A DNA stretch of 64,000 nt, taken from Candidatus Babelota bacterium (lineage in GTDB: Bacteria > Babelota > Babeliae > Babelales > JACPOV01). The notes beneath the pieces are model-generated. The model searched no databases. It was not told the DNA's origin and saw only the letters and a list, made by a program, of their open reading frames with translations. The translations under genes were made by a program, and so were the position numbers. Location of the stretch: contig JAKJAQ010000001.1 of NCBI GenBank assembly GCA_022707425.1, forward strand, positions 69,089 through 133,088, given 5' to 3'. How positions within the stretch are numbered: the first letter of the stretch is position 1; the number at the start of each line of letters is the position of its first letter. This document shows, one piece after another, positions 4,413 to 62,897 of the stretch.

Positions 4413-4434
4413 GGGCATATTTCATATGTTGCCC
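4413..4434 (-). terminator. Possible weak intrinsic terminator downstream of the WecA-like gene
   Basis: Hairpin GGGCATAT-TTC-ATATG(TT)GCCC. On the minus strand it is followed by TTTGTT. The T-tract is poor. Confidence 0.3.
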
Positions 4435-4477
4435 GATATTTAAAACAAAAGCAACCGCAAGACAACAATTTAAACAA

Positions 4478-7828: not shown

Positions 7829-7856
7829 AGATGTATTGTATCCTCAACATAAAAGC

Positions 7857-32563: not shown

Positions 32564-33949
32564 ATGGTCTGGCCGATAAATAGTGTACTCGTTTTGTTTT
32601 TGGTTTCATCAACTATATTGCGATCAATGGAGCAATCTGAACATTGTACCATTCCTGAGTTTAAGAAGGATGTAATACTTAATCTTAATAATCAACCGAT
32701 TAAGCTTGTACAATTTCAGGGCAACAATCTTTTGAGGTTAATGTTTCGTGAAAATGATTATCATTGTACTTTTTTTATTCATCGTGATCGCGAAAATAAA
32801 CTTTATTTGAATCCAATTATTCCCGAAAATGAATCGCTTGAGCAAATGAATCTGGATTATAGTTTACTTGATGCGATTGAAAGAGGTGATATTGATACCT
32901 GTCGCCAGCTAAAAAATGAAGCAAATTTTTCTGTTTTAGATGCGCGCCTTAAGTTTATATCTCCATTCAATATCATACGGCGAAGCGATCAAAAAATTTG
33001 TTCCTCTGAAGATATTGTGGCTGGTGAAGCATTTACGTTACAGATCAGTCAAAAACCAGCAGTTTATTGTTGGCCTTATGCAGATTCTTCTAATTTTTCT
33101 ATTATTCAGCAGTTAGAGCGTAATTATAATTATCATATTTTGAGAGAACTTATGTGTGATGAGAAGTTATATACATTTGAAATGAATCAAACGAAGTTGC
33201 TTGAAATCACTGGTTTCTTGAAAGTAGTACAAGCTGAGGAAAAAGAGTTGCCGTTTATGCAGGCGCTCATTCGTCTTTTAACCGATGAAAAAAGTTTAGA
33301 TCAATTATGCATTTGTCGCCTTGGCAAACTCTATGCAAAAATTATTGCACAGCAAGACTCGAAAGGTAAGCAGCTTATTTCTCAAATCCATGATTGGAAA
33401 AAATATCAAATTTTAAGAGGCCATATATTGCACTCGCTCAGTGAAATGGTCCGTATGCAACCTTACCAAGAAGCTCAATTAATTCCATCTAACTTCGTTG
33501 AATTATCAAAGCGCATTATGCAAGATGAGCTATTTTTAGAGTCGGTCAAAAGCAAAGAATTTTTTTCAAATGTGCTTTCATATAGCAAACTGTATGGTGT
33601 AGATGGGCAACATAAAGAATGGAGTGCGATATATTATCACATGCTTGCGCTTCTGTTAAAAAATGAAGAGGGTAAAATTTTTTTAAAAGAACTGTGCAAT
33701 AACAAAAATAATGAAAATCTTTTTAGTTCAACGATAAAACCGTTTATGCAAAACGCATTGTTTCGCAAGTTCGTAGTTCGGCAGCTTGTGTGCGCAAACC
33801 CACCGTTGAATGAACATGTTGCGCCACTTGTTTCTGAGCACTGGCAACCGGATGAAAAATTTATAAATTATTTTAAAGCATTAAAAATAAGCAAACGGAT
33901 GGCAAATAAGATTATTGAAATTGAAACAAAGAAGTTTAAAAAGCAATAA
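32564..33949 (+). CDS. Exported orphan protein (leader-ME class)
   Basis: Leader MVWPINSVLVLFLVSSTILRS followed by MEQ. The 461-aa ORF has no recognisable motif and lies directly upstream of the RING protein. Confidence 0.55.
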   Translation: MVWPINSVLVLFLVSSTILRSMEQSEHCTIPEFKKDVILNLNNQPIKLVQFQGNNLLRLMFRENDYHCTFFIHRDRENKLYLNPIIPENESLEQMNLDYSLLDAIERGDIDTCRQLKNEANFSVLDARLKFISPFNIIRRSDQKICSSEDIVAGEAFTLQISQKPAVYCWPYADSSNFSIIQQLERNYNYHILRELMCDEKLYTFEMNQTKLLEITGFLKVVQAEEKELPFMQALIRLLTDEKSLDQLCICRLGKLYAKIIAQQDSKGKQLISQIHDWKKYQILRGHILHSLSEMVRMQPYQEAQLIPSNFVELSKRIMQDELFLESVKSKEFFSNVLSYSKLYGVDGQHKEWSAIYYHMLALLLKNEEGKIFLKELCNNKNNENLFSSTIKPFMQNALFRKFVVRQLVCANPPLNEHVAPLVSEHWQPDEKFINYFKALKISKRMANKIIEIETKKFKKQ

Positions 33950-34006
33950 TATAAGTGCGAAAAATGATATATTTTAGTTATGTATAACTTTAATAAGGAG
34001 TTTTTT

Positions 34007-35017
34007 GTGAACAATAGATTGCCTATTTTTAGATTGATGTGTTTGCTGCTTTGTGCCAGCACGGTTGTTTTTGCAGATAATAATTCATGGGAATCATTTT
34101 GGGAAATGTTTTGGGGCCCAAAAATTAATTATTCGGCAGTTCAATTTGATGTGCAGGATGAATTAGATCGCTTATTTTTTAATAAATTAGAATTTATATC
34201 GCCCGAAATGCAAAACGTACGTTTTCAAATGAGTAAAAATATTGTTGAATTAATTAAATCATCTAATCTTGATTCCCAAGTGCAAGCAAAAGAACAGGCG
34301 GTTGCAGCGGTAAAGCCGGCGATAAAGCAATTTGTTGTTGATCTTGGAACGAAAAAAATTGTACAAGAAATTGGTTCATATTATCATGGCCGACCTCCGT
34401 ACAATCCTGAACAATTTGAACAGCGAATAAAACAGGAATTGGCACAACAAATTGATGATGCATTTCGTAAAAATAAAAATGTTACACAGCTGTTGAGCAT
34501 GAGTAAGCTTAAGGAAATTATTGAACAATACGATAATCAATATGCTCTTCAAGCTGGCGGTGTTTATCACAAATTAGATAAAGAATTGCCACAACTCTAT
34601 GCGGGTCAAACAGTTGCAGGAGAGGATGTGCCAGCGGGAGCACCGGTGGATAATGTACATGAACTTTATCCACAATTTAATGATAAAACCGCTGAAGGAC
34701 TGGAGCGTAATAAGAAATTTTATGGTCCATTTTTTGAAAAAGTAAAACAATTCCGCGCAGAAGAATGTCCAATTTGCAGCGAAAATTTTGATGCGCATTG
34801 TGCACGCGTAAATTTATATTGCGGACATTCATTATGTGCAACATGTTTAGCAGGACATGTGCATATTAATGATAAAAATCAATGTCCAACATGCAGACAA
34901 GAAGTGCGCGCATCAGAATTTCCGGTAAATTATTTACGCGATTTCATCAACCGGGAAGATCTCAAACAACAATTTCCCAGGATGCATGATAAAATACGCA
35001 GATTATTTAGGTTTTAA
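34007..35017 (+). CDS. Exported protein with a C-terminal eukaryote-type C3HC4 RING finger (putative E3 ubiquitin-ligase mimic)
   Basis: CPICSENFDAHCARVNLYCGHSLCATCLAGHVHINDKNQCPTCRQ gives C-x2-C-x14-C-x-H-x2-C-x2-C-x12-C-x2-C (nt 34766-34894). Hydrophobic leader. The GTG at 34007 lies 6 nt after AAGGAG; the ORF-track ATG at 33980 is the alternative. Confidence 0.75.
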   Translation: MNNRLPIFRLMCLLLCASTVVFADNNSWESFWEMFWGPKINYSAVQFDVQDELDRLFFNKLEFISPEMQNVRFQMSKNIVELIKSSNLDSQVQAKEQAVAAVKPAIKQFVVDLGTKKIVQEIGSYYHGRPPYNPEQFEQRIKQELAQQIDDAFRKNKNVTQLLSMSKLKEIIEQYDNQYALQAGGVYHKLDKELPQLYAGQTVAGEDVPAGAPVDNVHELYPQFNDKTAEGLERNKKFYGPFFEKVKQFRAEECPICSENFDAHCARVNLYCGHSLCATCLAGHVHINDKNQCPTCRQEVRASEFPVNYLRDFINREDLKQQFPRMHDKIRRLFRF

Positions 35018-35407: not shown

Positions 35408-36475
35408 TTATTGAGGCATACTATAGTTGATGTGTTCAAGATCTTCAATCCAGGCGGTTACTAAAGCTATTTCTGCTGGTTTAAAATATTGCTTAATTAT
35501 TAATTCGTTCATGAGTTCTTCCATCCGTTCAACAAATACCTTTTTTTCGCATTTCCAATTACGCAATGTGTTAATGAGTTGCTCAGATTTTAAATATACA
35601 TCAATTTCGTCCGCAAAATCGGTGAGTAAATTGTGTTCATTGCGATATTGAACTGCTGTTGGTGCAAGAAAACAGACCGATCCGTCAAAATCCCAGAGGA
35701 GCCGCTGCATCCAATAACTTCTCCAAATGTCACAGACGCGAAAACTTGGAGTAACTGGCAAAAGTAATGCCCAGAATGCGTTGTAATAAAAAATAGTATT
35801 TTGTGAATTAAATGGGCAGAGAACGCCGCGTTGTAAACTAAGCGGCTTCTTATTCGAATCAAAATTAATTTCTTGACTGTGTGTCAAACGATAAATTGCA
35901 TCAACATCAGGATCATTATTCACGACACCTTGCTGAATAGGACAATGAACGTGCCGTTCAACTGTTTGATACTGTTGGTTATGTATAATTTTTTTAAGTG
36001 GATACCCGCGTGGCCATACGTTTGGTTGTCCAAAATGTTCATAAGGATTAACCGTTGATTGATCAGTGATGTATTGAATTGTGGTTGCATGTTCAGGTAG
36101 ATAGCCAATTTCATTATCTATTAAATAATTGTCGTCATCGGTTTCATAAATGATTCGTGCTCCGTGTTCAATTGCATAAAGATAGCCAATATTTTTTCGC
36201 GAATAATGATTCCATGGTAGAAACTGAATAATTTTGTAGGGCAACTGTTGTTGTTTTTCTACGCTCAAAAATTCACAATTATCTAAATGCCAATCGCATG
36301 GCGTTTTTTTATCAGCCACTACTACCAAATGCCAATCGGGAAGTTGCGCAAGCTGCTTAAGTGCCGCAGTTGGATAATTAATGGTAGTAACAACAATCCA
36401 TTTATCAGTCGCATTAATTTTGATGCATGAAATAAATAAAAAAAAGTATGCAATGCGTTGCAAAATTGTGCTCAT
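35408..36475 (-). CDS. STELLO/DUF288-like glycosyltransferase (eukaryote-type), signal-anchored
   Basis: WIVVTTINYPT...WHLVVVADKKTPCDW, RKNIGYLYAIEHGARIIYETDDDNY, VNPYEHFGQPNVWPRGYPL and QQGVVNNDPDVDAIYRLT. These match, from memory, the plant and Dictyostelium STELLO family. The start overlaps the stop of the upstream gene by 1 nt. Confidence 0.65.
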   Translation of the reverse strand: MSTILQRIAYFFLFISCIKINATDKWIVVTTINYPTAALKQLAQLPDWHLVVVADKKTPCDWHLDNCEFLSVEKQQQLPYKIIQFLPWNHYSRKNIGYLYAIEHGARIIYETDDDNYLIDNEIGYLPEHATTIQYITDQSTVNPYEHFGQPNVWPRGYPLKKIIHNQQYQTVERHVHCPIQQGVVNNDPDVDAIYRLTHSQEINFDSNKKPLSLQRGVLCPFNSQNTIFYYNAFWALLLPVTPSFRVCDIWRSYWMQRLLWDFDGSVCFLAPTAVQYRNEHNLLTDFADEIDVYLKSEQLINTLRNWKCEKKVFVERMEELMNELIIKQYFKPAEIALVTAWIEDLEHINYSMPQ

Positions 36476-37311
36476 TATTTATCCTTTTTTTGGCTTAAAA
36501 ATATTTCTCGAATAACGTGTTGATTTTCCAAGCTTGAAAGTTTGATGGGATGATGAAAATAATTTTTCATTTTAAAAGTTTTGCATGGGTTATTTCTTTC
36601 CGTGCCTTCACCTTTAAGCCAGAGCCATTGAGTTTTTGGTTCTAGACATGCAGCAATGGTTGGAACAGCGATTTCTAAAAAAAGTTCATGTGAATGAAAT
36701 AAAACAGCAAGCTCAATAAACTGAGTTCGTAAACGTGCAGGAATATAAATAAGATCTGAATAGGCAGCAACGACATTTCCTTCGCCCCAATTTTGGGCAA
36801 GTTGATTTTTATAAGATTGGGGTAAATTATTGAAAGCGTTCAATGCTGCAGGGTAACCCCATTTTGTTAACCAAATGCTCCATGAAGAATAGGCCTTAAA
36901 ACCAGAGTTTAATTGAATCGGGGTGCCACGGGTTGAGGTGAATGAATGAATATCTGAATACCAAATTCTGTTGGTATCGAGCGGTTCTAAGAGCCATGCA
37001 TTAAGTATGCAATCATCCATTAAAAAAAAGTAACCATTTTTTTCAGGATTTTTTTCCATTGCGTCGGCAATGGTTATGTAACTCAAAAATCCTTCATGGT
37101 GTTTGCAGCAAGTAACATCGAGGTGTTCTTCGGGACCATAAAAAACAATATCGCTAAAATAGGGCGCATAGAGTTCTTTAAGAAACGGAATAGAATCATA
37201 ATACGCATGATTATAGTTTATGATTAATAATGTATTTTCAAATTGTGCCGCGTTAATGAAAGCGCCGAGAAGCGAAATAAAAAAAAATGCACATGCTTTG
37301 ACATAGTTCAT
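36475..37311 (-). CDS. Signal-anchored orphan protein, family A copy 1 (paralog of 38827-39684); possibly a glycan-related enzyme
   Basis: LLIINYNHAYYDSIPFLKELYAPYF..VFYGPEEH...ADAMEKNPEKNGYFFLMDDCILNAWLL aligns along its whole length with 38827-39684. Translationally coupled to the STELLO-like gene. Confidence 0.6.
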   Translation of the reverse strand: MNYVKACAFFFISLLGAFINAAQFENTLLIINYNHAYYDSIPFLKELYAPYFSDIVFYGPEEHLDVTCCKHHEGFLSYITIADAMEKNPEKNGYFFLMDDCILNAWLLEPLDTNRIWYSDIHSFTSTRGTPIQLNSGFKAYSSWSIWLTKWGYPAALNAFNNLPQSYKNQLAQNWGEGNVVAAYSDLIYIPARLRTQFIELAVLFHSHELFLEIAVPTIAACLEPKTQWLWLKGEGTERNNPCKTFKMKNYFHHPIKLSSLENQHVIREIFLSQKKDK

Positions 37312-37448
37312 TATACTCTTACCTTTTTTTTAACAGTTAAAAACAGCTGAAATTGAGCCTATCAAAAAAAATAAAAAAACCAAAAAACAGATAAAACTGA
37401 GCTGAATGGATAGTGCATGGTAAAAAATGACCAATAATTTATTTCAAA

Positions 37449-37476
37449 TTGACAAAATAGTAATAATTGATATAAT
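37449..37476 (+). promoter_or_regulatory. Sigma70-type promoter for 37506-38768
   Basis: TTGACA (37449-37454), a 16-nt spacer, then TATAAT (37471-37476), about 30 nt before the ATG at 37506. Confidence 0.5.
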
Positions 37477-37505
37477 GAATATAAGGTTAAAATATGGAGT
37501 AAGCA

Positions 37506-38174
37506 ATGATTAATTTAAAAAAAATAGCATTAGTGGTTCTGAGTGCTTTGGTTATTAATCAAATCAATGCTGATACCTTTTTGGGAAAATTGATTAATAA
37601 CCACCCCTATTTAACTGCCTTGGGATGCGTGGCAATGGGGGGCACAAGTTTACTTGTGGGTATTGAAGCAAAGAAAGCTCAGAATTGGCAAGATGAATAT
37701 TTGGATAAAGGAAAATTACGATTCAAAAACGAACTTGAGAGTAAAAATTTTGCTCAACTAGGCAAGATTATCTATCATCATAAGCTTTATCCTACTGAGA
37801 TTACCACACAAAATATGGGTTTAGATGAAAAAGAACGAGCGTATCTTGCTGCAATAGAATATGGAAGCACTATAGGTAGAGAGAGTTATTGCATTCAAAA
37901 AAGTATAACCTACCGACATTACTTCCCTGCGGATCAGAGATTTGTGAAGTATGTTGTTCACGAACATGATGTGCGCTATTGGGAGCTACCTCCTATTTGG
38001 CAAAAAAAAGTTCAAGATGGTAAAGAAAAAATGATCTTAAAGCCAATAAAACGCTATGAACTTGAAATAAAAAAACAAAATAGATGGATTCCGGCATTTT
38101 GTTTCGGTGTAAGTGCACTCAATTTTGCTTCAGCAATTGGATTTGCCGCATACAGTTTTTCAAAAAAAGCATAA
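37506..38174 (+). CDS. Hypothetical membrane protein (leader, internal TM, C-terminal TM)
   Basis: MINLKKIALVVLSALVINQINA leader, a second hydrophobic segment LTALGCVAMGGTSLLVG, and a C-terminal helix WIPAFCFGVSALNFASAIGFAAYSF. Confidence 0.55.
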   Translation: MINLKKIALVVLSALVINQINADTFLGKLINNHPYLTALGCVAMGGTSLLVGIEAKKAQNWQDEYLDKGKLRFKNELESKNFAQLGKIIYHHKLYPTEITTQNMGLDEKERAYLAAIEYGSTIGRESYCIQKSITYRHYFPADQRFVKYVVHEHDVRYWELPPIWQKKVQDGKEKMILKPIKRYELEIKKQNRWIPAFCFGVSALNFASAIGFAAYSFSKKA

Positions 38175-38213
38175 TTATTTAGATTGATTGTTAATGAATG
38201 GAGTATCAAAAAA

Positions 38214-38768
38214 ATGAAAATGAAAAAAATAATAGCGTTATCAAGTCTGTTGCTTATTGCAGCAAATGTGTTTTGTGGATTTAGTGATTTCACGAAAACT
38301 ATTCTTAATTCATGCAATGATCAAAAACTGCCGGCTGCATTAGCGGCCGTTGGTTTGGGTACCGGAATAAGTACGATTGTAATAAATCAGAAAAAATTGA
38401 ACGCCATTAAAAAAGGTGATAAGAAAAAGGTAGCGGATTATCCTAATATTGATTTTGCTGCCTTCAAAATTCCGACAACTACCAGTGTTCAGGGAGTTGA
38501 TGGAAATCGGGGCATTTTCGTAAAAAAATTATCCACTCAAGGGAATTATCTATTTACTGAAATGCAGAGCGGTCTATTTGGGAGTATTAAAAGCTCTGGA
38601 ACAGTAAAATTAAACTTAGATAAGGTTAATGCAATTACTGGTACGATTAAATTCAACAAAGTTGAAAAAAATTATTATTGGGGACGCATCGCAGCTGCTG
38701 TTACATTACCAGTTATTGGGGGTTATGTTGCAGGTATGGTGATCAATAACTACTTTAAACAATCATAA
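38214..38768 (+). CDS. Hypothetical membrane protein with the same architecture as 37506-38174
   Basis: The start was moved to the ATG at 38214 (MKMKKIIALSSLLLIAANV) after GGAG. Second TM LPAALAAVGLGTGISTIVI and C-terminal TM IAAAVTLPVIGGYVAGMVI. Confidence 0.55.
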   Translation: MKMKKIIALSSLLLIAANVFCGFSDFTKTILNSCNDQKLPAALAAVGLGTGISTIVINQKKLNAIKKGDKKKVADYPNIDFAAFKIPTTTSVQGVDGNRGIFVKKLSTQGNYLFTEMQSGLFGSIKSSGTVKLNLDKVNAITGTIKFNKVEKNYYWGRIAAAVTLPVIGGYVAGMVINNYFKQS

Positions 38769-38787
38769 AAAAAATAGTTTAAAAGTT

Positions 38788-38819
38788 AGGCGACACTTTT
38801 TATGAGCGTCGCCTTTTTT
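38788..38819. terminator. Bidirectional intrinsic terminator
   Basis: AGGCGAC (38788-38794) pairs with GTCGCCT (38808-38814) and is followed by T6. It lies between convergent genes. Confidence 0.7.
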
Positions 38820-38826
38820 GTATGCA

Positions 38827-39684
38827 TTATTGTTTGTGTTGTTCAAAATAATTTTCTATGAACGTGCGATTTTCTTCATATGAAAGCTTTATTGGATGAT
38901 TAAAATGTAAATGTTCACTAAAATATTCTTGTGATTGCGCAGTTCCAGGATAAAAGGTACCCGTACCTTGTAACCAAAACCAATTATTTTTTGAAGTGAG
39001 ACAACTCAAGATTGTTGGCAGCGCTGTTTCCAGAAAAGCTTTTCTTTTTGCGAAAATAAGTGCCAATTTTATAAACGTATCCTTGTACATTGCAGGAATG
39101 TATGCAAGATCAGAAAATGATGCTGGTACTGTATTTTTGCCCCAATTTTTTTCTAATATTTTTTTTTGTTCGCGTGGTAATTTTTTGAAAGCACTTTTCA
39201 TTGGCTCATATCCCCATTCAGATTGCCACCATGCCCAATGAGTAATTGCTTTTTTGCCTAATTTAATTTTTATTGGTGTGCCACGGTTATTGATTTGTTT
39301 TCCATCATTTTGAATGATAAAGGGAATATCACCAAACCATATTTTTTTTGTATCGATACCGGTCAATAACCAAGGATTCAAAATACAATCATCCATTAGA
39401 AAGAGATATCCTTCAAAATGTGGATAACGCTCCATGGCATCAGCAATTGCGGTGTAACTAAAATATCCTTTATGATGATTACATACATGTATTTCTGGGT
39501 GCTCTTTTGGCCCATAGAAAACAACTTTTCCAAAATAGGGTGTATATATTTTCTTGAGTAAATCAATTGATTCGTAATGTGCATGATTATAATTAATAAT
39601 GAGAAGAATGTTTTTAAAATCGGTTGAAAAAATTGATCCACAGGTAAATAAAAAAATGAAACTTACTATTTGCATGAACTTCAT
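38827..39684 (-). CDS. Signal-anchored orphan protein, family A copy 2
   Basis: LLIINYNHAHYESIDLLKKIYTPYF..VFYGPKEH...ADAMERYPHFEGYLFLMDDCILNPWLL, a paralog of 36475-37311. AGAGGG SD. Confidence 0.6.
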   Translation of the reverse strand: MKFMQIVSFIFLFTCGSIFSTDFKNILLIINYNHAHYESIDLLKKIYTPYFGKVVFYGPKEHPEIHVCNHHKGYFSYTAIADAMERYPHFEGYLFLMDDCILNPWLLTGIDTKKIWFGDIPFIIQNDGKQINNRGTPIKIKLGKKAITHWAWWQSEWGYEPMKSAFKKLPREQKKILEKNWGKNTVPASFSDLAYIPAMYKDTFIKLALIFAKRKAFLETALPTILSCLTSKNNWFWLQGTGTFYPGTAQSQEYFSEHLHFNHPIKLSYEENRTFIENYFEQHKQ

Positions 39685-39824: not shown

Positions 39825-41219
39825 ATGATTGAAAAATTAACTGATATATCAAGCACTATACAAAAACCATACTATTATTGGTTAAAAAAAAATTGGTATT
39901 ATCATTTTTTTGTAACGCAATTTTATCAGTGGGCAGTAGAACCAGGAAGTGTTGTTTTACAAATTGGATGCAAAACTGGGTATATTTTGGATGCAGTAAA
40001 ACCGCGCATTGGAGTAGGAGTGGAAGCGGAAAATGAATGCCGTGAATCTGCACAGCAACAATTTTCCTGTTATCAATTTGTGCAAACAATTCCTGAAATT
40101 AATGATCAAAAATTTGATTACATTATTTTGTCATCAACGTTGATGGAAACTGAAGATATTCAGCTGTTGTTGCTTTCGTTGCAGCGGTTCTGTAGTTCGC
40201 ACACACGTATTATTATTGATGGATATTCTTTTTTGTGGGAGCCATTGTTGTGGTGTGCGCAAAAATGTGGTTTACGCAGACAAACAATTTTTAAAAACTG
40301 GTTATCGCAAACTGATATTGAAAATTTTTTATATCTGAGCAATTTTGAAAAAATTACCAATGGTCGACGCATGTTATTTCCTTGGTATATTCCAGGAATT
40401 TCTTACGTTTTGAATCGTTTATTGGCATATATTCCTTTAGTAAATCGATTATGTTTAATTGAATGGACAATTGCGCGTTCAATTGCAAAAAAAGAAATTA
40501 TGAACCCTACCGTTTCAGTTATTGTTCCATGCAGGAATGAGCGAGGAACGATAGAAACAATTGTTACGAACATGCCCCAGTTTGGGCAGAACACCGAAAT
40601 TATTTTTGTCGAAGGCCATTCAACTGATGGTACTTTAAACGAAATTGAGCGGGTCGCCAGTTTATATCCTGAAAAAAATGTGCGCTGTTTTGTACAAACA
40701 GGTGCCGATAAAGGTGATGCGGTGCGTTTAGGCTTTTCAATGGCGCATAACGATATTTTAATGATTTTTGATGGTGATAATACAGTGCCGATGCATGAAT
40801 TACCACTTTTTGTGCAAGCATTAATTATTGGTAAAGGTGAATTAATTAATGGTTCTCGGTTTGTCTATGCAATGGAAACTGGTGCCACCCGTTTTTTGAA
40901 TGTTTGGGTAAACTACTGTTTCAGCTTAGGCTTTTCTTGGTTGTTAGGACAATCGGTGGAAGATACATTGTGTGGAACAAAAGTGCTTTTAAAAAAAGAT
41001 TATGAACGCATTGCACGTAATCGTTCCTATTTTGGTGAAGTTGATCCGTTTAGTGATTTTGATCTTCTTTTTGGCGCCGCGAAACTTCAACTAAAAATTG
41101 TTGATATTCCGGTACATTATAAACGACGAACCTATGGGAGCCCGCAAGTACGCTATTTTTATCACGGGTTTATTTTATTGCGCATGTGGTTTTTTGCGCT
41201 GGGTAAGTTTAAATTCTAA
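39825..41219 (+). CDS. Bifunctional class I SAM-methyltransferase-like / GT2 glycosyltransferase
   Basis: N-terminal motif I VVLQIGCKTGY. The C-terminal GT2 region has VSVIVPCRNERGTIETIV, IIFVEGHSTDGT and a DxD-type MIFDGDN. Confidence 0.75.
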   Translation: MIEKLTDISSTIQKPYYYWLKKNWYYHFFVTQFYQWAVEPGSVVLQIGCKTGYILDAVKPRIGVGVEAENECRESAQQQFSCYQFVQTIPEINDQKFDYIILSSTLMETEDIQLLLLSLQRFCSSHTRIIIDGYSFLWEPLLWCAQKCGLRRQTIFKNWLSQTDIENFLYLSNFEKITNGRRMLFPWYIPGISYVLNRLLAYIPLVNRLCLIEWTIARSIAKKEIMNPTVSVIVPCRNERGTIETIVTNMPQFGQNTEIIFVEGHSTDGTLNEIERVASLYPEKNVRCFVQTGADKGDAVRLGFSMAHNDILMIFDGDNTVPMHELPLFVQALIIGKGELINGSRFVYAMETGATRFLNVWVNYCFSLGFSWLLGQSVEDTLCGTKVLLKKDYERIARNRSYFGEVDPFSDFDLLFGAAKLQLKIVDIPVHYKRRTYGSPQVRYFYHGFILLRMWFFALGKFKF

Positions 41220-41277
41220 AAAATTCATGGTATAACCATAACGAAAACACTCCGACCATTTTGGAAAGGAGCAGGTA

Positions 41278-43230
41278 GTGTGTGGCATTGCAGGATATCG
41301 TTCATTAGATGATCGCGATTTATTAATAAATCAAAGTGCACTTGATCAAGTCCAACAGTCTTTGGCTCATCGTGGGCCTGACGGTTTTCGAATTTGGAAT
41401 GCACCAGATCGAAAAACAACATTGATTCATCGACGTTTGAGCATTGTTGATCTTTCTTGCGCGGGTTTTCAACCATTATTCGATAATGACAATTCAATTG
41501 CGGTGATATGCAATGGTGAAATTTATAATCATCCTCAGTTGCGTGCGCAATTGGAGCATGAAGGTTATCGATTCAGCTCAAATTCTGACACTGAAACAAT
41601 TGTCTATGCCTACAAAAAATGGGGGATTGATTGTTTACGTTATTTAGAAGGCGATTTTGCAATCGCAATTGTTGATTTAAAAAAAGATGAGTTTTTTTTA
41701 GCGCGCGATCGCATTGGAGTAAAACCACTCTATTTTTCTCTGCAAGGAAATGTAGTAAGTTTTGCATCAGAAATTAAAGCATTGTGGCCGCTGCCGTGGA
41801 TGCATAAAAAAATTAATTCGCGGGGGTTGTACCATTACTTGACTTACATGGTAACACCGGCCCCACTGACTCTCTACGAAGGTGTCTACAAATTGCCTGC
41901 AGGTTTTTATCTCAAGGTGAGTGCTCATAATCAGGTGACATTTCATGAATGGTATAACCCCTTAGATAAACTTTTTAGTCAATCGATCATTTCTGATGAG
42001 CAACAAGCAATAGATGATATTGAACAATTATTTCATGCAGCAGTGAAAAAAAGATTAATGTCCGATGTGCCTCTTGGTTCATTTTTATCGGGTGGTATTG
42101 ACTCAAGTTTGATAGTTGCACACATGAGCCAAATGACTGATCAAGTAAAAACATTTAACGTTTCATTTTCAGATGGGCCTGAATTCAGTGAAATTGAATG
42201 GGCACGTTTGGTTGCAAACAAATTTCATACTCAACATCGCGAAATTGTAATAAGTGAAAAAGAAGCGTTCGAATTTTTTGAAGCAATGGTGTATTACCAA
42301 GATGAACCAATTGCGGACTGTGTATGCATTCCACTTTATTTTGTGGCAAAATTGTTGCGAGACTCGGGTGTTACTGTTGTGCTTGTTGGAGAAGGGTCCG
42401 ATGAACTTTTTTGTGGCTATTCTACTTATGCTCATTATGTTGATACCTACAATTCTTACTGGAAACCGGCAACGAAATATGTGCCACGTTTTGTAAAGCA
42501 GGGTGTGTACAATTTGGCGCGGCGCAGCTTTGCGCATAAACCGTATCACGTTGCTTTGTTACAACAATGGGCAGAAGAACGTAATTTATTCTGGAGTGGT
42601 GCAATAGCATTTCCAGAAAATGCAAAAAAAGAAATTATTAAATCTAATATGCATGCAAGCTATGACTCCGTTCTTGAAGCGATCTATCCAGGATTTGATC
42701 AGGAACTTAATAGTTATGCAGTAGTAGAATATCATTTAGCGCAACTTGAGAAACGTGCACCGCATCTTGATTTTCTCAATCGCATGATTTATTTAGAACT
42801 AAAGCAGCGATTACCTGAACTTTTATTAATGCGTCTTGATAAAATGGCAATGGCAACATCGGTTGAAGGACGCGTTCCGTTTTTGGATCATGAGTTAGTG
42901 GAATATTCGTTCAGAGTTGCACCGCAACTTAAATATAAAAATGGAATAACAAAATATATTCTCAAAAAAGTGGCTGAGCGTTCTTTGCCTTATGAAGTTG
43001 TTCATCGAAAAAAAGTTGGTTTTGCAGCGCCAACTATGCGTTGGATGCGATCTGGTGACTTTTTCAACAACTATTTTAACGAGCTATTAGTTCGCAAACG
43101 TTCCGAATGGAGTGAATATCTCGATTTTGACGCAATACATACTATGTATCAACAAAATGCTGCTGGAAAAAGAGAATGTTCAGTGCAACTGTGGGTTGTG
43201 CAAAATTTAATTGCTGGATCATCACTATGA
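41278..43230 (+). CDS. Asparagine synthetase B-type glutamine amidotransferase (glycan-locus type)
   Basis: GTG start followed by CGIAGY (the N-terminal nucleophile Cys), and the PP-loop motif SGGIDSS. AGGAG SD. 650 aa. Confidence 0.85.
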   Translation: MCGIAGYRSLDDRDLLINQSALDQVQQSLAHRGPDGFRIWNAPDRKTTLIHRRLSIVDLSCAGFQPLFDNDNSIAVICNGEIYNHPQLRAQLEHEGYRFSSNSDTETIVYAYKKWGIDCLRYLEGDFAIAIVDLKKDEFFLARDRIGVKPLYFSLQGNVVSFASEIKALWPLPWMHKKINSRGLYHYLTYMVTPAPLTLYEGVYKLPAGFYLKVSAHNQVTFHEWYNPLDKLFSQSIISDEQQAIDDIEQLFHAAVKKRLMSDVPLGSFLSGGIDSSLIVAHMSQMTDQVKTFNVSFSDGPEFSEIEWARLVANKFHTQHREIVISEKEAFEFFEAMVYYQDEPIADCVCIPLYFVAKLLRDSGVTVVLVGEGSDELFCGYSTYAHYVDTYNSYWKPATKYVPRFVKQGVYNLARRSFAHKPYHVALLQQWAEERNLFWSGAIAFPENAKKEIIKSNMHASYDSVLEAIYPGFDQELNSYAVVEYHLAQLEKRAPHLDFLNRMIYLELKQRLPELLLMRLDKMAMATSVEGRVPFLDHELVEYSFRVAPQLKYKNGITKYILKKVAERSLPYEVVHRKKVGFAAPTMRWMRSGDFFNNYFNELLVRKRSEWSEYLDFDAIHTMYQQNAAGKRECSVQLWVVQNLIAGSSL

Positions 43231-44447
43231 AACCTGCACAGTCGGTGCTTTATGTGCGTACAGATATTTATGCACAACCGCTCGTTGCCGGAGGATCAGT
43301 TTCACACACCATTGGTGTGATTGATGGATTTAAAAAATGTGGTTATCGCATTCTTATAGCATCTTCATGCATGGAAAATTATTTTAAAACCGCTGACATT
43401 GCAGCATTTGTGCATCTGCGCAATCCGCGCATTTTTCGCTTATTGCGCACAATGTTCAATTGTATTATTTCAAATATTTTTTTTTCAGTACAACTCATTA
43501 AGTTATTAAAAAAAGAAAAAATTGATTTTATTTATCAGCGCTACAGCATGCTCAATTGCACGGGTGTTCTTATGAGCACAGTTAAAAAAATTCCGTTCAT
43601 ATTAGAATATAACGGTTCAGAAACGTGGGTACAAAAAAATTGGACAACACACAAAAAAATACGAATGCTTTGGTTGATCGATTTGTTTGAACGAATTAAT
43701 ATACAGAATGCAACCTTTATTATCGTGGTTTCCCAAGCTCTCAAAGACGAATTGTGCGTGCGCGGAATTAAAGCACAAAAAATTTTAGTGAATCCAAACG
43801 GTGTCGATCCAATTATATTTGATTCAAAAAAGCTTGAGAAAGAGCGCGTGGCATTACGAACAGAAAATGCAATTTCAGACAGCGATTTTGTGGTTGGCTT
43901 TGTTGGCACATTCAATAAATGGCACGGTATTGAATTATTAAGTGAAATTATTCCTGATTCATTGAAAAAAAATAAATCGCTCTTCTTTTTGATGATTGGT
44001 GATGGCCCACTTTTTGCATTGTTTAAAAAAAAATTAATTGATCAAAATGTTGATTCACGTCGTGTCATGCTGACTGGTTTGGTTTCTCATGAACAGGTGC
44101 GCACCTATTTAGCCGCATGCGATGCATTTATTTGTCCAACACAACCAAATGCTGATGGTAGCAAATTTTTCGGGTCACCCACCAAATTGTTTGAGTATAT
44201 GAGTTTGGAAAAACCGGTGATAGCGTCAGATATTGGACAGCTAGCTGAAATTCTCAAACCTGAATGTGGCATTTTGGTACCCAGTGCAGATGCAGGTCGA
44301 TTTGTTGATGCGATTACGCATTTAGCAACAAAAGATGTTTTCGAAAAAAAAAGAATGGGCAAATGTGCCCGCGATGAAATTATTAATAATTATTCATGGC
44401 AACAGCATGTAGCGCGGATTAGTGCATTTGTAAAAGGAGAGCAATGA
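43227..44447 (+). CDS. GT4 (group 1) glycosyltransferase
   Basis: The ATG at 43227 forms an ATGA overlap with the AsnB stop. GGSVSHTIGVIDGF and FICPTQPNADGSKFFGSPTKLFEYMSLEKPVIASDIGQLAEIL. It is a paralog of the C-terminal half of 48995-51736. Confidence 0.8.
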   Translation: MKPAQSVLYVRTDIYAQPLVAGGSVSHTIGVIDGFKKCGYRILIASSCMENYFKTADIAAFVHLRNPRIFRLLRTMFNCIISNIFFSVQLIKLLKKEKIDFIYQRYSMLNCTGVLMSTVKKIPFILEYNGSETWVQKNWTTHKKIRMLWLIDLFERINIQNATFIIVVSQALKDELCVRGIKAQKILVNPNGVDPIIFDSKKLEKERVALRTENAISDSDFVVGFVGTFNKWHGIELLSEIIPDSLKKNKSLFFLMIGDGPLFALFKKKLIDQNVDSRRVMLTGLVSHEQVRTYLAACDAFICPTQPNADGSKFFGSPTKLFEYMSLEKPVIASDIGQLAEILKPECGILVPSADAGRFVDAITHLATKDVFEKKRMGKCARDEIINNYSWQQHVARISAFVKGEQ

Positions 44448-46819: not shown

Positions 46820-47815
46820 ATGAATAAAAAACTCATATCAATTATCTTACCCATTTATAATGAAGCTGAATCGATTGCAGTTTTATATGATCGACTTAAT
46901 GGTGTAATTGATTCACTTTCAGCTACCTATGACTTTGAAATTATTATGGTTGATGATGGAAGTGCCGATGAATCATGGAAAAAAATAAATCAACTTGCAC
47001 AACTTGATTGTCGGATTAGAGGAATTTCATTTAGCAGAAATTTTGGGCACCAAATTGCAATTAGTGCAGGCTATGATTATGCAAGAGGTGATGCCCTTAT
47101 CACCATGGATGCTGATTTGCAACATCCACCACACCTTATTCCGGCTCTTATTGAAGAATGGCAAAAAGGTGCTGCAATTGTATATGTTCGTAATCGTGTG
47201 GTTGCGAACGGTTTGGTGAAAAAATTCTTTTCAACTGCTTATTATTTTATTCTGGATTGTATTGTTCCCATTAAAATTCCGCACAATGTACAAGATTTCA
47301 GACTTATCGATAAAAAAGTTGCCACTATTGTGCGTCAATCACGGGAACAATCACCATACTTGCGCGGCATGGTTGCATGGACTGGATTCTCATCTACTTT
47401 TATTGATGCTGCCTATGATAAGCGGTTTACCGGAAAAAGCGGCTATTCGCTAAGCAAAATGTTTAAACTTGCATTTGATGGCATGACCGGATTTTCACTA
47501 TTTCCATTAAAAATTGCTGCTTACATTGGTTTTTTTGTGATAGCAACTGGATGCACTATGTTTGCGTACATTACCGTTGATGCTTTTTGTAATCATGTTT
47601 ATTACCCATTGTTTAAATGGCTTGTCACGATCATTTATATTTTTATTGGTGTTTTATTTATTTTGATTTGGTTTCTTGGTGAATATATTGGACGCATTTA
47701 CAATCAATTACAAGCACGGCCACTGTATGTTGTTGCAGAAGAACTGAATAGTATTACTTTGTCAAACATGATGAATGAAAAAAAACCTTTGCATTGTCAT
47801 TGTGAGCGAGTATGA
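46820..47815 (+). CDS. GT2 polyprenol-phosphate glycosyltransferase (GtrB/ArnC/Dpm1-like)
   Basis: ISIILPIYNEAESI, IIMVDDGSADES and ITMDADLQHPP, plus two C-terminal TM helices. Confidence 0.8.
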   Translation: MNKKLISIILPIYNEAESIAVLYDRLNGVIDSLSATYDFEIIMVDDGSADESWKKINQLAQLDCRIRGISFSRNFGHQIAISAGYDYARGDALITMDADLQHPPHLIPALIEEWQKGAAIVYVRNRVVANGLVKKFFSTAYYFILDCIVPIKIPHNVQDFRLIDKKVATIVRQSREQSPYLRGMVAWTGFSSTFIDAAYDKRFTGKSGYSLSKMFKLAFDGMTGFSLFPLKIAAYIGFFVIATGCTMFAYITVDAFCNHVYYPLFKWLVTIIYIFIGVLFILIWFLGEYIGRIYNQLQARPLYVVAEELNSITLSNMMNEKKPLHCHCERV

Positions 47816-49014
47816 ATTTTGCATCATTTTTTACCACTATCAAACATTTTTTGTGGTTTTATAAACCAACTGAGGGTCGCTTTATTCATTTGGGGTTTGT
47901 TAATGAAGGTTTTAAGCGTTCAGGCATTCCGTGGGTAGAATATGATGGATCGCAACTCATTCCTTTCTGTGCGGCAGATGATATTGGCATTTATTGGTTA
48001 ATTCCACGCATAGCTCATGCGCTTGATTGTTCAGTTGAAAGGGCAATATGCATTTTTTTTTATGGTAGTGCTCTTTTTTCTTGGACTCTTGGGATAATAG
48101 GCTTTTTTTTACTCTATCGTTCTGTTGTGCAAAGATTTGTAGCGTTTATTGGTTTGAGTAGTTTGTTATTGTTAACGCTCTATATTGGTGATGTGTATAT
48201 TCTTTATTCTTCTGCCGCAATGGCTCTGATGCCATTGGGGATGTATCTTTCTTTAAATGATACAAAGCCCATTTATTGCGGAATCTTTGGCGTCTTTGCA
48301 GGATTATTTGTGGGCATTGATCATTTTGTTCGTTCATATTGTGCCGTGCCACCATTATTATTTGTTTTAATTTTATGTTGGTTTCAGCGCGATTGTGCAC
48401 GATCGAAAAAAGGTATTTTAACGTGCGCAATTGTTGTTGGTTTGATGAGTGTTGTTTTTTTTACTCATCATCAAAAAAATAGGTATCATGCGTATATTCA
48501 TCAAAGTTATCCAACTGCGCGACTTGATAACTACCAACATGGTATTTGGCACACGATATATTGTGGATTAGGTTTTTTTAAGTTTATGAATAAGCGAAAT
48601 ATAGAATGGAACGATTCATGTGCGCAAAACTTTATTGAGAGAATGAGGCAAAATAAAAATAATGTAGATTTAAGTGGTGAGGAGATATTAAAAACAGAAA
48701 TTATTAACATTATGAGCAATGAATCACATTTTATGGTGTTCTCACTATTTGGTAAAATCGGTGTGTTAATTTTGTTCTTGCTCTTGAGCGCACAAATCGG
48801 TTTAATTGCTGCTTTTATTGTTCGCAAACCATTGGTAATTGATCTGTCATTTTTTATTGCGTTTGTAACTAGTGCTGTTTTTCCTCTTCTTGCCATGCCT
48901 TTTTTAACGTATGGCCTTAGTTTTATTTCGTGTGCTGTGGTCTATAATATTGTGAGTATCAATTATGCGTATGCTCAATTAATACAAAAACGTTCTACAA
49001 ACTACGCACAATAA
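47812..49014 (+). CDS. Polytopic membrane protein, family B copy 1 (unknown; candidate lipid-linked-sugar transferase or polymerase)
   Basis: ATGA overlap with the GtrB-like gene. About 9-10 hydrophobic helices. GIPWVEYDGSQLIPFCAADDIGIYWLIP and HGIWHTIYCGLGFF are conserved in 51829-52986. Confidence 0.6.
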   Translation: MNFASFFTTIKHFLWFYKPTEGRFIHLGFVNEGFKRSGIPWVEYDGSQLIPFCAADDIGIYWLIPRIAHALDCSVERAICIFFYGSALFSWTLGIIGFFLLYRSVVQRFVAFIGLSSLLLLTLYIGDVYILYSSAAMALMPLGMYLSLNDTKPIYCGIFGVFAGLFVGIDHFVRSYCAVPPLLFVLILCWFQRDCARSKKGILTCAIVVGLMSVVFFTHHQKNRYHAYIHQSYPTARLDNYQHGIWHTIYCGLGFFKFMNKRNIEWNDSCAQNFIERMRQNKNNVDLSGEEILKTEIINIMSNESHFMVFSLFGKIGVLILFLLLSAQIGLIAAFIVRKPLVIDLSFFIAFVTSAVFPLLAMPFLTYGLSFISCAVVYNIVSINYAYAQLIQKRSTNYAQ

Positions 49015-51736: not shown

Positions 51737-51828
51737 CCAACGCTCCCGTTTTTTTAAAATTTTACTGTATTTAGTATAATTGATTTAAGTTAAAAAAAAT
51801 GAAACAAAAAAAGGTAATGGAGAAGAGA

Positions 51829-52986
51829 ATGAATATTATGGGATGTCGTTTTACGCATCTTTTAGCAACAATGGCAGGATACCAAAAAACAGGAATTTCA
51901 TTAATCGAATGGGATGGCAATCAATTATTACCAACATCTTGTGCTGATGATCTAGGCATTTATATTCTTCTGCCTAAACTTGCGACATTTTTTGGTCTTA
52001 GTATTGAGCAAGCAATTTCATATTTTTTTTATATTCTTCTTATTGTCCCAGCGGCGATTGGCATTATTGGTTTTTGTGCAGTGTATAAACACATTGTTCA
52101 GCGATTTATAGCTGTTTTTGGCGTGCTTTTACTTACGCTTTTTGCCAAAGCCGTAGGCGACGTATATTTGTGTTATAGCTCTAGTTTGCTTTTAATTCTT
52201 CCTTTTACCGTTTATTTTTTTGAAAACAGAAAGTTTGACAACCTTTTTTTGTTTTTTTGTCTGAGCATAGGTTTCATGGTAACAACATTGCAATTTATAC
52301 GATCGTATAGTGCTATTGCTCCATTAATTTTTTTTCTTATACTGATGCTCCTTGATATACAGCTTTCAATAATACGCAAGCTCATTTTTATTGGAACATG
52401 TGCAGTTGGTATGATGATGCCACTTTTCTATTTTAATGCTGTGCAGAATGAATCTTTGCGATATGCAATCCAAAATAATCTGATTGATACTAAGCAAGAA
52501 AAAAAACATCCACTGTGGCACACATTGTATGTAGGTTTTGGATTATTGCATTTCAAAAATGAACACCAGATCGCTTATGATGATTCATGCGCTGCCAAAA
52601 AAGTTCAATCAATTGATAATTCGATAGCTTACTGTTCGGCAGAATATGATGCGATATTAAAAAATGAAGTAATTAATCTTTTTAAATATCATTTTTTGTT
52701 TGTGTTGTTAACGCTTTTTGCAAAACTAGGAGTACTTTTTTATTTTTTATTGAAATTTGCAAATGTTGGCCTTATTGCAGCACTTTTTTATCCTAAATCA
52801 TGGGTTATTGAATTGGGTTTCTTCTTTGCACTGGCATTTAATTCATTATTCGTCTTTATTGCCATGCCAATTCATGAATATGCACTCGGGTTTATTGCAG
52901 CCGCTGCTCTTTATGGAATTGTAAGTATAAATCATGCACTGTCTAAGTTAAAACGAGTGAAATTGCCGCTATTCATATTTAGATAA
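51829..52986 (+). CDS. Polytopic membrane protein, family B copy 2
   Basis: GISLIEWDGNQLLPTSCADDLGIYILLP and HPLWHTLYVGFGLL align with 47812-49014. The ATG at 51829 (MNIMGCRF) follows GGAGAAGAG; the ORF-track ATG at 51799 is the alternative. Confidence 0.6.
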   Translation: MNIMGCRFTHLLATMAGYQKTGISLIEWDGNQLLPTSCADDLGIYILLPKLATFFGLSIEQAISYFFYILLIVPAAIGIIGFCAVYKHIVQRFIAVFGVLLLTLFAKAVGDVYLCYSSSLLLILPFTVYFFENRKFDNLFLFFCLSIGFMVTTLQFIRSYSAIAPLIFFLILMLLDIQLSIIRKLIFIGTCAVGMMMPLFYFNAVQNESLRYAIQNNLIDTKQEKKHPLWHTLYVGFGLLHFKNEHQIAYDDSCAAKKVQSIDNSIAYCSAEYDAILKNEVINLFKYHFLFVLLTLFAKLGVLFYFLLKFANVGLIAALFYPKSWVIELGFFFALAFNSLFVFIAMPIHEYALGFIAAAALYGIVSINHALSKLKRVKLPLFIFR

Positions 52987-53068
52987 TTATTTTTGTTTTT
53001 TTCAATTTGTTCTTCTTGCGACTCTAAATGAAGTATCTTAAAAGATGGGATATATAAGGGGGAATCGT

Positions 53069-62890: not shown

Positions 62891-62897
62891 TATTTCC

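What the first reader, a model, noticed from the sequence alone, without database searches (positions are those of the whole stretch)
35408..39684. Eukaryote-type STELLO/DUF288-like glycosyltransferase coupled to a duplicated orphan enzyme family and paired membrane proteins
Seen in the sequence: the 35408-36475 product carries WIVVTT..YPT, W.LVVVADKKTP.DW, RKNIGYLYAIEHGA, ETDDDNY, VNPYEHFGQPNVWPRGYPL and QQGVVNNDPDVD. From memory, these are the conserved blocks of the STELLO (DUF288) Golgi glycosyltransferase-like family of plants and amoebozoa.

Its start overlaps the stop of 36475-37311 by 1 nt. That gene has a full-length paralog at 38827-39684 (LLIINYNHA.Y.SI, VFYGP.EH, ADAME, GY.FLMDDCILN.WLL, HPIKLS). 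Between the two copies lie two membrane proteins of the same architecture, driven by a near-consensus TTGACA-16-TATAAT promoter.

Inference: this is a small module for a eukaryote-like glycan modification. Family A is uncharacterised, and its conserved DDC could be a DxD-type site.
Basis: partly seen in the sequence, partly recalled or inferred. Interest (0 to 1): 0.6.

Follow-up and report, generated by a model that had tools for sequence, protein, structure and literature searches.

The report
Split STELLO glycosyltransferase pair in Dependentiae
A protist-associated bacterium (Dependentiae) encodes the two halves of the eukaryotic Golgi protein STELLO as separate, translationally coupled, exported proteins, so the supposed "orphan" family is STELLO's second glycosyltransferase domain; the same domain order occurs fused in giant viruses.

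Summary
The sequence observations are all correct: ORFs, motifs, 1-nt TAATG overlap, 45%-identical paralogs and a perfect promoter.

- 35408-36475 is a real STELLO-family protein (PF03385, 76 bits). The whole protein has the GT75 NDP-pyranose-mutase fold (MtdL: sequence E 7e-19, Foldseek E 1e-22, TM 0.78). It keeps 10 of 13 MtdL active-site residues.
- "Family A" is not an orphan. It is the C-terminal domain of full-length (~700-770 aa) STELLO proteins of molluscs, fungi and green algae. It is predicted with high confidence (pLDDT 94.8) as a GT-A fold closest to GT31. The invariant DD sits right after strand 4.
- The window therefore holds a split STELLO in the order C-domain gene then GT75-like gene, plus a spare C-domain paralog.
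- This adjacency recurs in 8 of 10 related loci, mostly Babeliales. The two parts are fused in that same order in giant-virus contigs (19 of 20 tested) and in the opposite order in eukaryotes.
- The two membrane proteins have no homologs in relatives and are not part of the module.

Chemistry remains inferred: an exported two-subunit sugar-nucleotide enzyme, possibly a furanose mutase plus transferase.

Verdict: new variant of a known kind, moderate interest.

The parts
35408..36475 (-). GT75-like half of STELLO ('N-domain' gene), 355 aa, with an N-terminal hydrophobic leader (residues ~8-20).
   Evidence: PF03385 at 76.3 bits. PDB MtdL at E 7e-19. AF2 pLDDT 92.8, and Foldseek to MtdL at E 1e-22, TM 0.78. 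36-47% identity to the N-halves of full-length eukaryotic STELLO proteins.
36131..36139 (-). DDD (D113-D115), the DxD metal and sugar-nucleotide motif of the GT75-like subunit.
   Evidence: Aligned with MtdL D109-D111. Invariant in 46 homologs. Coordinates checked.
36008..36010 (-). R156 in WPRG, equivalent to the MtdL R159 nucleophile and the self-glycosylated Arg of RGPs.
   Evidence: HMMER alignment. Role taken from PMC9937993. Invariant.
36475..37311 (-). Family A copy 1, the STELLO C-terminal-domain homolog. Predicted GT-A fold, with a hydrophobic leader.
   Evidence: PF03385 positions 203-353 at 26 bits. A profile search finds the domain at the C-termini of 700-765-aa STELLO proteins. 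AF2 pLDDT 94.8. Foldseek to GT31 B3GNT2 at E 3e-7.
37012..37017 (-). D99-D100 (LMDDC), the putative DxD of family A copy 1.
   Evidence: Invariant in 64 homologs. Directly follows predicted strand 93-98. Coordinates checked.
36473..36477 (-). TAATG stop/start overlap coupling family A copy 1 to the GT75-like gene.
38827..39684 (-). Family A copy 2, a paralog with DD at 39388-39393.
   Evidence: 45% identity to copy 1, E 1e-91. PF03385 at 25.8 bits. Relatives carry 2-3 copies per locus.
37449..37476 (+). Perfect sigma-70-type promoter with TG extended -10, upstream of the first membrane-protein gene.
37506..38174 (+). Small membrane protein 1 (leader plus 2 TM). Lineage-specific insert, not a conserved part of the module.
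   Evidence: No Pfam or NCBIfam hit. Topology heuristic. No homolog in related loci.
38184..38768 (+). Small membrane protein 2 (leader plus 2 TM; the likely start is the ATG at 38214). Lineage-specific, not conserved.
39825..44447 (+). Conserved neighbours: a methyltransferase-GT2 fusion (polyprenyl-phosphate-sugar-synthase-like), an AsnB-like amidotransferase and a GT4. This is the start of a larger glycan cluster running to ~51.7 kb.
   Evidence: Pfam and NCBIfam hits. The same genes flank the famA/STELLO genes in L002, L003, L005, L007 and L010.

Best explanation
The locus encodes a split STELLO.

Shown:
- One gene (35408-36475) makes the GT75-like half, a GT-A-derived sugar-nucleotide-binding enzyme of the MtdL/RGP fold.
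- The gene immediately upstream (36475-37311), coupled through a TAATG overlap, makes the other half, a GT-A glycosyltransferase domain closest to GT31.
- A second copy of that half lies 1.5 kb away.
- All three carry N-terminal hydrophobic leaders.
- The module sits beside a conserved surface-glycan cluster (GT2-methyltransferase, AsnB-like, GT4, methyltransferases).

Inferred:
- The products are exported or membrane-anchored and work together as a two-subunit enzyme, because the same two parts are one polypeptide in eukaryotes (GT75-like then GT-A) and in giant viruses (GT-A then GT75-like).
- The most likely chemistry is as follows. [quoted passage not shown] The extra paralogs supply different acceptor or linkage specificities.

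Confidence by part: homology and split architecture ~0.95; the two parts acting as a functional pair ~0.7; the mutase-plus-transferase chemistry ~0.25-0.3.
For: Homology of both halves:
-.
- In the GT75-like subunit, 10 of 13 MtdL functional residues are kept and invariant: D113-115, R156, D190, S224, Q225, R246, D249, R278, H281. Their roles come from PMC9937993.

Family A as a GT-A enzyme:
- GT-A fold with invariant DD, D186, H254 and K257. These are also invariant in eukaryotic full-length proteins.

Functional pairing:
- The two genes are adjacent in 8 of 10 genome loci.
- They are fused in both orders: eukaryotes; giant-virus contigs, 24 of 55 with famA directly upstream and 19 of 20 tested in the same ORF; and a 'Luteolibacter' MAG contig.

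Export:
- Leaders are conserved, in 53 of 58 famA and 33 of 35 N-domain homologs.

Glycan context:
-. One relative fuses famA to a TylF-type sugar O-methyltransferase.

Precedent:
- GfsA is a GT31 enzyme that uses an NDP-furanose donor (PMC11538602).
Against: - No activity has been shown for any STELLO protein.
- The MtdL Mn ligand His287 is an invariant Gln (Q276) here, and the essential Asp87 is an invariant Tyr (Y91).
- In Arabidopsis, R271A (the Arg equivalent) and DD591-592AA still complement stl1stl2 (PMC4906169). By spacing against the Trebouxia homolog P0437, DD591-592 most probably corresponds to the family-A DD.
- Exported enzymes would have no obvious NDP-sugar supply in a bacterial periplasm, and the window has no NDP-sugar synthesis genes.
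- The leaders were judged by a hydropathy heuristic only.
- Family A scores just below Pfam's curated cut-off (26.0 against 27.8 bits).
Confidence: 0.6

Rival explanations
1. Two ordinary glycosyltransferases that act in succession, with no mutase chemistry. This would be a dual-GT co-polymerase or two-step glycan extender, analogous to two-GT-A-domain enzymes such as LARGE1 or chondroitin synthase. The GT75-like unit would be a plain transferase.
For: - Both halves have GT-A-type folds with DxD motifs.
- The plant R271A mutant is functional, while DD205-206 and DVD297-299 are essential. That fits a transferase better than an Arg-dependent mutase.
- His287 to Gln and Asp87 to Tyr depart from active mutases.
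- The locus sits in a glycan cluster.
Against: - The nucleophile Arg and the base Asp (R156, D249), specific to GT75 chemistry, are invariant across bacteria, viruses and eukaryotes.
- One GT75-like gene is paired with 2-3 family-A paralogs, which is not the 1:1 ratio expected of a co-polymerase.
Confidence: 0.25
2. Secreted effectors that mimic host STELLO. The leader-bearing proteins would be delivered into the protist host or its vacuole, use host sugar nucleotides, and remodel host Golgi, cellulose or cyst-wall assembly.
For: - Conserved leaders.
- Neighbours include a leader-bearing RING-finger protein and another leader-bearing protein with no family hit.
- The source is a Dependentiae MAG; from general knowledge, cultured members of this phylum are obligate parasites of protists.
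- There are no NDP-sugar genes in the window.
- Plant STELLO controls cellulose synthase complex assembly (PMC4906169).
Against: - Linkage to the bacterium's own GT2/AsnB/GT4 glycan genes is conserved across divergent relatives.
- A Sec-type leader alone does not deliver a protein into a host cell.
- No host is known for this MAG.
Confidence: 0.12
3. Largely non-catalytic proteins: scaffolds or lectin-like pseudoenzymes that organise glycan-synthesis machinery, as has been suggested for plant STELLO in complex assembly.
For: The plant R271A and DD591-592AA mutants complement. No STELLO activity has ever been reported. The metal-ligand His is replaced.
Against: Strict invariance of the DDD, R, D, SQ, R..D and R.NxH residues, and of the famA DD, D, H and K residues, across very distant lineages is hard to explain without catalysis or ligand binding. 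DD205-206 and DVD297-299 are essential in plants.
Confidence: 0.08
4. Family A is a sugar-phosphate (Stealth/CpsY-like) transferase rather than a glycosyltransferase.
For: Weaker Foldseek hits to CpsY (8j2n, E 3.7e-4) and to a viral 'Stealth protein'.
Against: GT31 enzymes score about 1000-fold better (E 3e-7). There is no Pfam Stealth hit.
Confidence: 0.04

Closest known systems
STELLO1/2 (Arabidopsis At2g41770/At3g57420; Pfam PF03385, former DUF288) and their full-length homologs in molluscs, annelids, fungi and green algae
   Same: Both domains are homologous. The GT75-like half is 36-47% identical, with all signature blocks. The C-terminal half is 23-29% identical, with the DD, D and HP.K residues conserved. 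An N-terminal hydrophobic segment precedes the catalytic domain, as in the type II Golgi protein.
   Different: - Here the protein is split into two genes, each with its own leader.
- The gene order is permuted (C-domain first).
- Extra C-domain paralogs are present.
- The host is bacterial and the locus is linked to a bacterial glycan cluster.
- Family A falls 2 bits below Pfam's cut-off.
GT75 NDP-pyranose mutases / reversibly glycosylated polypeptides (MtdL, Hyg20, plant RGP/UAM)
   Same: The whole-protein fold matches (TM 0.78 to MtdL; rice UAM2 at E 1e-11). Conserved residues are DDD, the nucleophile Arg, the base Asp, SQ, the beta-phosphate Arg, and R.NxH of loop A.
   Different: - There is no Pfam RGP hit.
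- Mn-ligand His287 is Gln, Asp87 is Tyr and Arg90 is Lys, all invariant.
- It carries a hydrophobic leader, whereas GT75 enzymes are cytosolic.
- It is always partnered with a GT-A domain.
GT31 GT-A glycosyltransferases (B3GNT2, B3GalT5, Fringe-like; GfsA galactofuranosyltransferase)
   Same: These are the best structural matches of the family-A model (E 3e-7 to 6e-5, TM ~0.5). The DxD follows strand 4, and there are later invariant Asp and His residues.
   Different: Sequence identity is about 12%. There is no Pfam GT31 or Fringe hit. TM of only ~0.5 marks it as a distinct GT-A family.
Giant-virus (GVMAG) fused famA-GT75-like proteins of ~580-600 aa
   Same: The same two domains occur in the same order as the two genes in this window. 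The GT75-like part is 34-42% identical and the famA part 24-31%.
   Different: They are fused into one ORF, have no hydrophobic leader, and some carry extra C-terminal domains.

Membership tests
STELLO / PF03385 | Significant match to the Pfam model above the curated cut-off | tested here: met
   35408-36475 scores 76.3 bits against 27.8, E 2.7e-21, but covers only profile positions 1-110.
STELLO / PF03385 | The C-terminal half of the model is present (profile positions ~200-387) | tested here: inconclusive
   It is on separate polypeptides. Family A scores 26.0 and 25.8 bits, just below the 27.8 cut-off. Even so, a profile of family A finds the C-termini of full-length STELLO proteins at E 1e-41 to 1e-47, and BLASTP gives E 1e-19 to 1e-27.
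STELLO / PF03385 | Single type II polypeptide: TM, then GT75-related region, then C-terminal domain | tested here: not met
   There are two genes with a 1-nt overlap, C-domain gene first, each with its own leader. The same layout is seen in Babeliales loci.
STELLO / PF03385 | Golgi localisation and a role in cellulose synthase complex assembly | not testable with these tools
   This is a plant phenotype (PMC4906169). It is not applicable to a bacterium.
GT75 (RGP/UAM/MtdL) | GT75 fold: Rossmann-like N region, unique core, C-terminal helices | tested here: met
   Foldseek to MtdL gives E 1e-22, TMq 0.78 over ~376 columns. Rice UAM2 gives E 1e-11. The next hits are at E>1e-4.
GT75 (RGP/UAM/MtdL) | DxD, nucleophile or self-glycosylated Arg, and general-base Asp | tested here: met
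   D113-115, R156 and D249 align to MtdL D109-111, R159 and D260, and are invariant.
GT75 (RGP/UAM/MtdL) | Mn2+-coordinating His (MtdL H287) and Asp87 | tested here: not met
   Invariant Gln276 and Tyr91 occupy these positions. Loss of H287 is associated with the inactive AtRGP5 (PMC9937993).
GT75 (RGP/UAM/MtdL) | Match to the family's sequence model (Pfam RGP) | tested here: not met
   No RGP family is listed at E<=0.1.
GT75 (RGP/UAM/MtdL) | NDP-pyranose mutase or self-glycosylation activity | not testable with these tools
   This needs enzyme assays.
GT-A glycosyltransferases (GT31-like) for family A | GT-A fold with DxD after strand 4 | tested here: met
   The AF2 model has pLDDT 94.8. The strand is at 93-98, followed by D99-D100. 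Foldseek gives 41 PDB hits at E<=1e-3, nearly all glycosyltransferases of the GT-A type (one is the phosphotransferase CpsY), topped by B3GNT2.
GT-A glycosyltransferases (GT31-like) for family A | Sequence membership in GT31 (Galactosyl_T or Fringe models) | tested here: not met
   There is no such Pfam hit, no PDB sequence hit with the family profile, and identity is ~12%.

The most novel reading that the evidence does not exclude
The permuted GT-A then GT75-like unit, split in Dependentiae and fused in giant viruses, is a self-contained 'make-and-use' furanosyltransferase. The GT75-like part would generate an unstable NDP-furanose, and the GT-A part would transfer it at once. If so, eukaryotic STELLO would be a Golgi furanosyl- or Arg-linked glycosyltransferase. 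Its long-unknown biochemical activity could then be solved using these small bacterial and viral proteins.
Probability: 0.2. Interest if true: 0.7.

Novelty: new variant of a known kind. Interest (0 to 1): 0.42.

Why it matters
STELLO proteins control cellulose synthase complex assembly in plants, yet no enzymatic activity has been found for them. Plant versions were mainly in the insoluble fraction on E. coli expression (PMC5466300).

This locus shows three things.
- STELLO consists of two separable GT-A-type modules.
- Nature has split, fused and permuted these modules in bacteria, giant viruses and eukaryotes. That is Rosetta-stone evidence that the halves work together.
- Small bacterial versions exist in an interpretable glycan-cluster context.

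This gives experimentalists candidate proteins that may be more tractable, and a concrete hypothesis to test. It also corrects the annotation of family A, which NCBI calls 'hypothetical protein'. Finally, it adds a case of gene sharing among protist-associated bacteria, giant viruses and eukaryotes.

Tried and rejected
- hhalign of family A against the GT75-like family found no detectable relationship (prob 0.8%). The two halves are therefore not recognisable duplicates.
- A PDB sequence search with the family-A profile gave no hit.
- NCBIfam had nothing for any of the five genes.
- The membrane proteins gave nothing at any level: BLASTP against each other, tblastn and phmmer against related loci, and an architecture scan. 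I rejected them as module parts.
- An NJ tree of the GT75-like domain with MtdL as outgroup grouped the Dependentiae-type sequences, but the deep nodes had under 50% bootstrap. The direction of transfer cannot be called. The first attempt timed out.
- Rfam and tRNA scans of the window found nothing.
- A literature search for STELLO together with giant viruses or Dependentiae listed no paper that contains the word STELLO.
- I considered a frameshift artefact of a fused gene and rejected it. Each gene has its own leader, and the split recurs in independent MAGs.


Full report
**Observation**

The five ORFs, the quoted motifs and the coordinates are correct.
- The stop of 36475-37311(-) and the start of 35408-36475(-) share one base (TAATG).
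- The two 'family A' proteins are 45% identical over their full length (E 1e-91).
- The divergent intergenic region carries TTGACA-16-TATAAT with a TG extended -10 at 37449-37476, 30 nt before the ATG at 37506. It is the only perfect match in the window (0.10 expected).
- The two small proteins between the paralogs each have a hydrophobic leader and two TM-like segments. They share no sequence similarity.

**Source**

Exact or near-exact copies of the proteins are on record from 'Candidatus Dependentiae bacterium ADurb.Bin331' (BWY54_00080, BWY54_00077). The rest of the window is an ordinary bacterial chromosome with H+-PPase, RNR, PGI, G6PD, UvrC, ClpB, SHMT, EF-P and NusB.

**The 355-aa protein**

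It passes Pfam STELLO (PF03385) at 76.3 bits, but only residues 246-354 match, against profile positions 1-110. The motif-rich N-terminal 245 residues lie outside the Pfam model.

Against the PDB it hits the GT75 NDP-pyranose mutase MtdL (E 7e-19, residues 71-322). An AlphaFold model (pLDDT 92.8) superposes on MtdL over its whole length (Foldseek E 1e-22, TM 0.78). Next comes rice UAM2 (E 1e-11), and nothing else is close.

I mapped the functional residues defined for MtdL (PMC9937993) onto the protein through the HMMER alignment.
- Present and invariant in 46 homologs: DDD (D113-115), the nucleophile Arg (R156 in WPRG), D190, S224-Q225, R246, the proposed base D249, R278 and H281.
- Different, and also invariant: Mn-ligand His287 is Gln276, Asp87 is Tyr91 and Arg90 is Lys94.

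The homology of STELLO to GT75 is already published (PMC4906169).

**Family A is not an orphan**

- Both copies hit the same Pfam model, PF03385, at profile positions ~200-353. They score 26.0 and 25.8 bits, just under the 27.8 cut-off.
- A profile of 64 family-A sequences searched against 1.84 billion representatives found 2372 proteins. Among them are 700-765-aa proteins in which the family-A domain is C-terminal.
- Those proteins come from the limpets Patella and Lottia and from the fungus Podila. They are PF03385 members, and their N-halves carry every motif of the 355-aa protein.
- By BLASTP, the 355-aa protein aligns end to end with their N-halves (36-47% identity, E 1e-60 to 1e-104). 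Family A aligns with their C-halves (23-29% identity, E 1e-19 to 1e-27).
- A profile of six full-length proteins recovers named 'probable glycosyltransferase STELLO1' proteins from molluscs, annelids, collembola, rotifers, nematodes and the green alga Trebouxia. Cnidarian proteins of ~450 aa match only its N-half (47-50% query coverage).

The window therefore contains STELLO in two pieces.

**Fold of family A**

AlphaFold gives pLDDT 94.8. Foldseek finds GT-A glycosyltransferases, best the GT31 enzymes B3GNT2 (E 3e-7, TM ~0.5) and B3GalT5, then GT6 and other GT-A enzymes. Viral predicted structures give Fringe-like and other GT-A proteins.

The invariant D99-D100 (LMDDC) follows strand 93-98, which is the canonical DxD position. 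D186, H254 and K257 are also invariant, and they are conserved in the eukaryotic full-length proteins too.

hhalign sees no relationship between the two halves.

**Conservation of the association**

In 10 genome loci, mostly Babeliales MAGs, family A lies next to the GT75-like gene in 8.
- The usual layout is famA then GT75-like on one strand, with 2-3 famA paralogs per locus.
- The AsnB-like, GT4 and methyltransferase-GT2 genes of the window recur beside them.
- One relative fuses famA to a TylF-type sugar O-methyltransferase.
- The two membrane proteins have no homolog or look-alike in any of these loci. I regard them as a lineage-specific insertion with their own strong promoter.

**Fusions in the bacterial order**

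A 'Luteolibacter' MAG contig encodes famA, the GT75-like domain and a DUF1796 domain in one leaderless ORF.

IMG/VR holds 55 loci, 16 of them on contigs labelled as giant-virus MAGs (GVMAG), with the GT75-like domain at 28-42% identity. In 24 of them a famA-like domain lies directly upstream, and in 19 of 20 tested it is in the same ORF. Most of these proteins are ~570-620 aa; the one I inspected (L029) has no hydrophobic leader.

Three architectures therefore exist:
- eukaryotic TM, GT75-like, famA;
- viral famA, GT75-like;
- Dependentiae famA gene then GT75-like gene, each with a leader.

Fusion in both orders is strong evidence that the two parts function together. A rough NJ tree groups the Dependentiae-type sequences but does not resolve deep nodes, so I do not infer the direction of transfer.

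**Mechanism**

Shown:
- two GT-A-type, DxD-bearing modules that are obligately linked;
- hydrophobic leaders conserved in the bacterial split forms, in 53 of 58 famA and 33 of 35 N-domain homologs;
- a glycan-cluster context.

Inferred: an exported two-subunit sugar-nucleotide enzyme. The near-complete MtdL catalytic set, one GT75-like gene serving several GT-A paralogs, and the precedent of a GT31 furanosyltransferase (GfsA, PMC11538602) suggest a mutase-plus-transferase couple.

Against this inference:
- the Gln-for-His and Tyr-for-Asp replacements;
- the plant data, in which R271A and DD591-592AA complement. By spacing against the Trebouxia homolog (288 against 294 residues after DVD), DD591-592 most probably corresponds to the family-A DD;
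- the lack of an evident NDP-sugar supply outside the cytoplasm, with no NDP-sugar genes in the window.

Rivals are a plain dual-GT enzyme, host-directed effectors, and pseudoenzymes.

**Verdict**

What is there is a split, permuted, leader-bearing bacterial STELLO with extra C-domain paralogs. That makes it a new variant of a known kind.

The GT75-like gene is already named 'STELLO glycosyltransferase family protein' in some MAG annotations. Family A is annotated only as 'hypothetical protein'. A full-text search listed no paper that mentions STELLO together with Dependentiae or giant viruses.

Interest is moderate. The locus does not overturn anything, but it offers a possibly more tractable route to the unknown biochemistry of STELLO.

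Noticed in passing
window 33980-35017 (+): A 345-aa protein with an N-terminal hydrophobic leader and a C-terminal eukaryote-type RING finger (zf-RING_2, E 1.6e-6). It is a possible secreted E3-ligase-like effector, next to another leader-bearing 461-aa protein (32564-33949) that has no family hit.
   Followed up: partly
window 61616-63908 (-): Two adjacent WD40 beta-propeller proteins (424 and 336 aa) with many eukaryotic WD40 family hits.
   Followed up: no
window 39825-41219 (+): A fusion of a MetW-like methyltransferase domain to a GT2 resembling polyprenyl-phosphate-sugar synthases (AglJ, ArnC, PpgS-like). It recurs near the STELLO genes in L002, L003, L007 and L010.
   Followed up: partly
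L003 5284-7107 (+): A family-A domain fused to a C-terminal TylF-type (macrocin O-methyltransferase) domain in one 607-aa leader-bearing protein.
   Followed up: partly
L012-L066 (IMG/VR contigs, 16 labelled GVMAG), e.g. L029 4185-6818, L037 3250-5121: Giant-virus contigs encode famA then GT75-like as one leaderless protein (19 of 20 tested), and some are extended to 840-1080 aa by unannotated C-terminal domains. A full-text search listed no paper that mentions STELLO together with giant viruses.
   Followed up: partly
L011 (Logan SRR17165143 contig, 8.4 kb), gene at 3100-5187: P0438 (695 aa) is the closest relative of P0291, the full-length STELLO most similar to the window's GT75-like protein. 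It sits on a dense, intron-free 33% GC contig with an ERG4/ERG24 sterol reductase, ubiquitin and NADAR genes, which looks like a giant virus rather than a cellular eukaryote. Its C-terminal ~300 aa did not match family A.
   Followed up: partly
L009 (JBIIKO010000001.1, 'Luteolibacter sp.' MAG), fused ORF around 5960-8900: The fused famA-GT75-like-DUF1796 protein is 35-42% identical over its full length to the giant-virus fused proteins, and the locus is only 43% GC. The contig may be mis-binned or the gene horizontally acquired.
   Followed up: partly
P0156 (479 aa, metagenome): A tandem famA-famA protein whose first copy has lost the DD motif (FTDNQ). It is a possible catalytic plus degenerate pair.
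   Followed up: no
L001 6900-7652 and 8220-9032 (-): Two transposase-like ORFs are inserted between family-A paralogs in a Babeliales MAG, which shows that this locus is rearrangement-prone.
   Followed up: no
window 47812-49014, 51799-52986, 53045-54196 (+): Three 380-400-aa ORFs inside or next to the glycan cluster have no Pfam hit at E<=1e-3.
   Followed up: no
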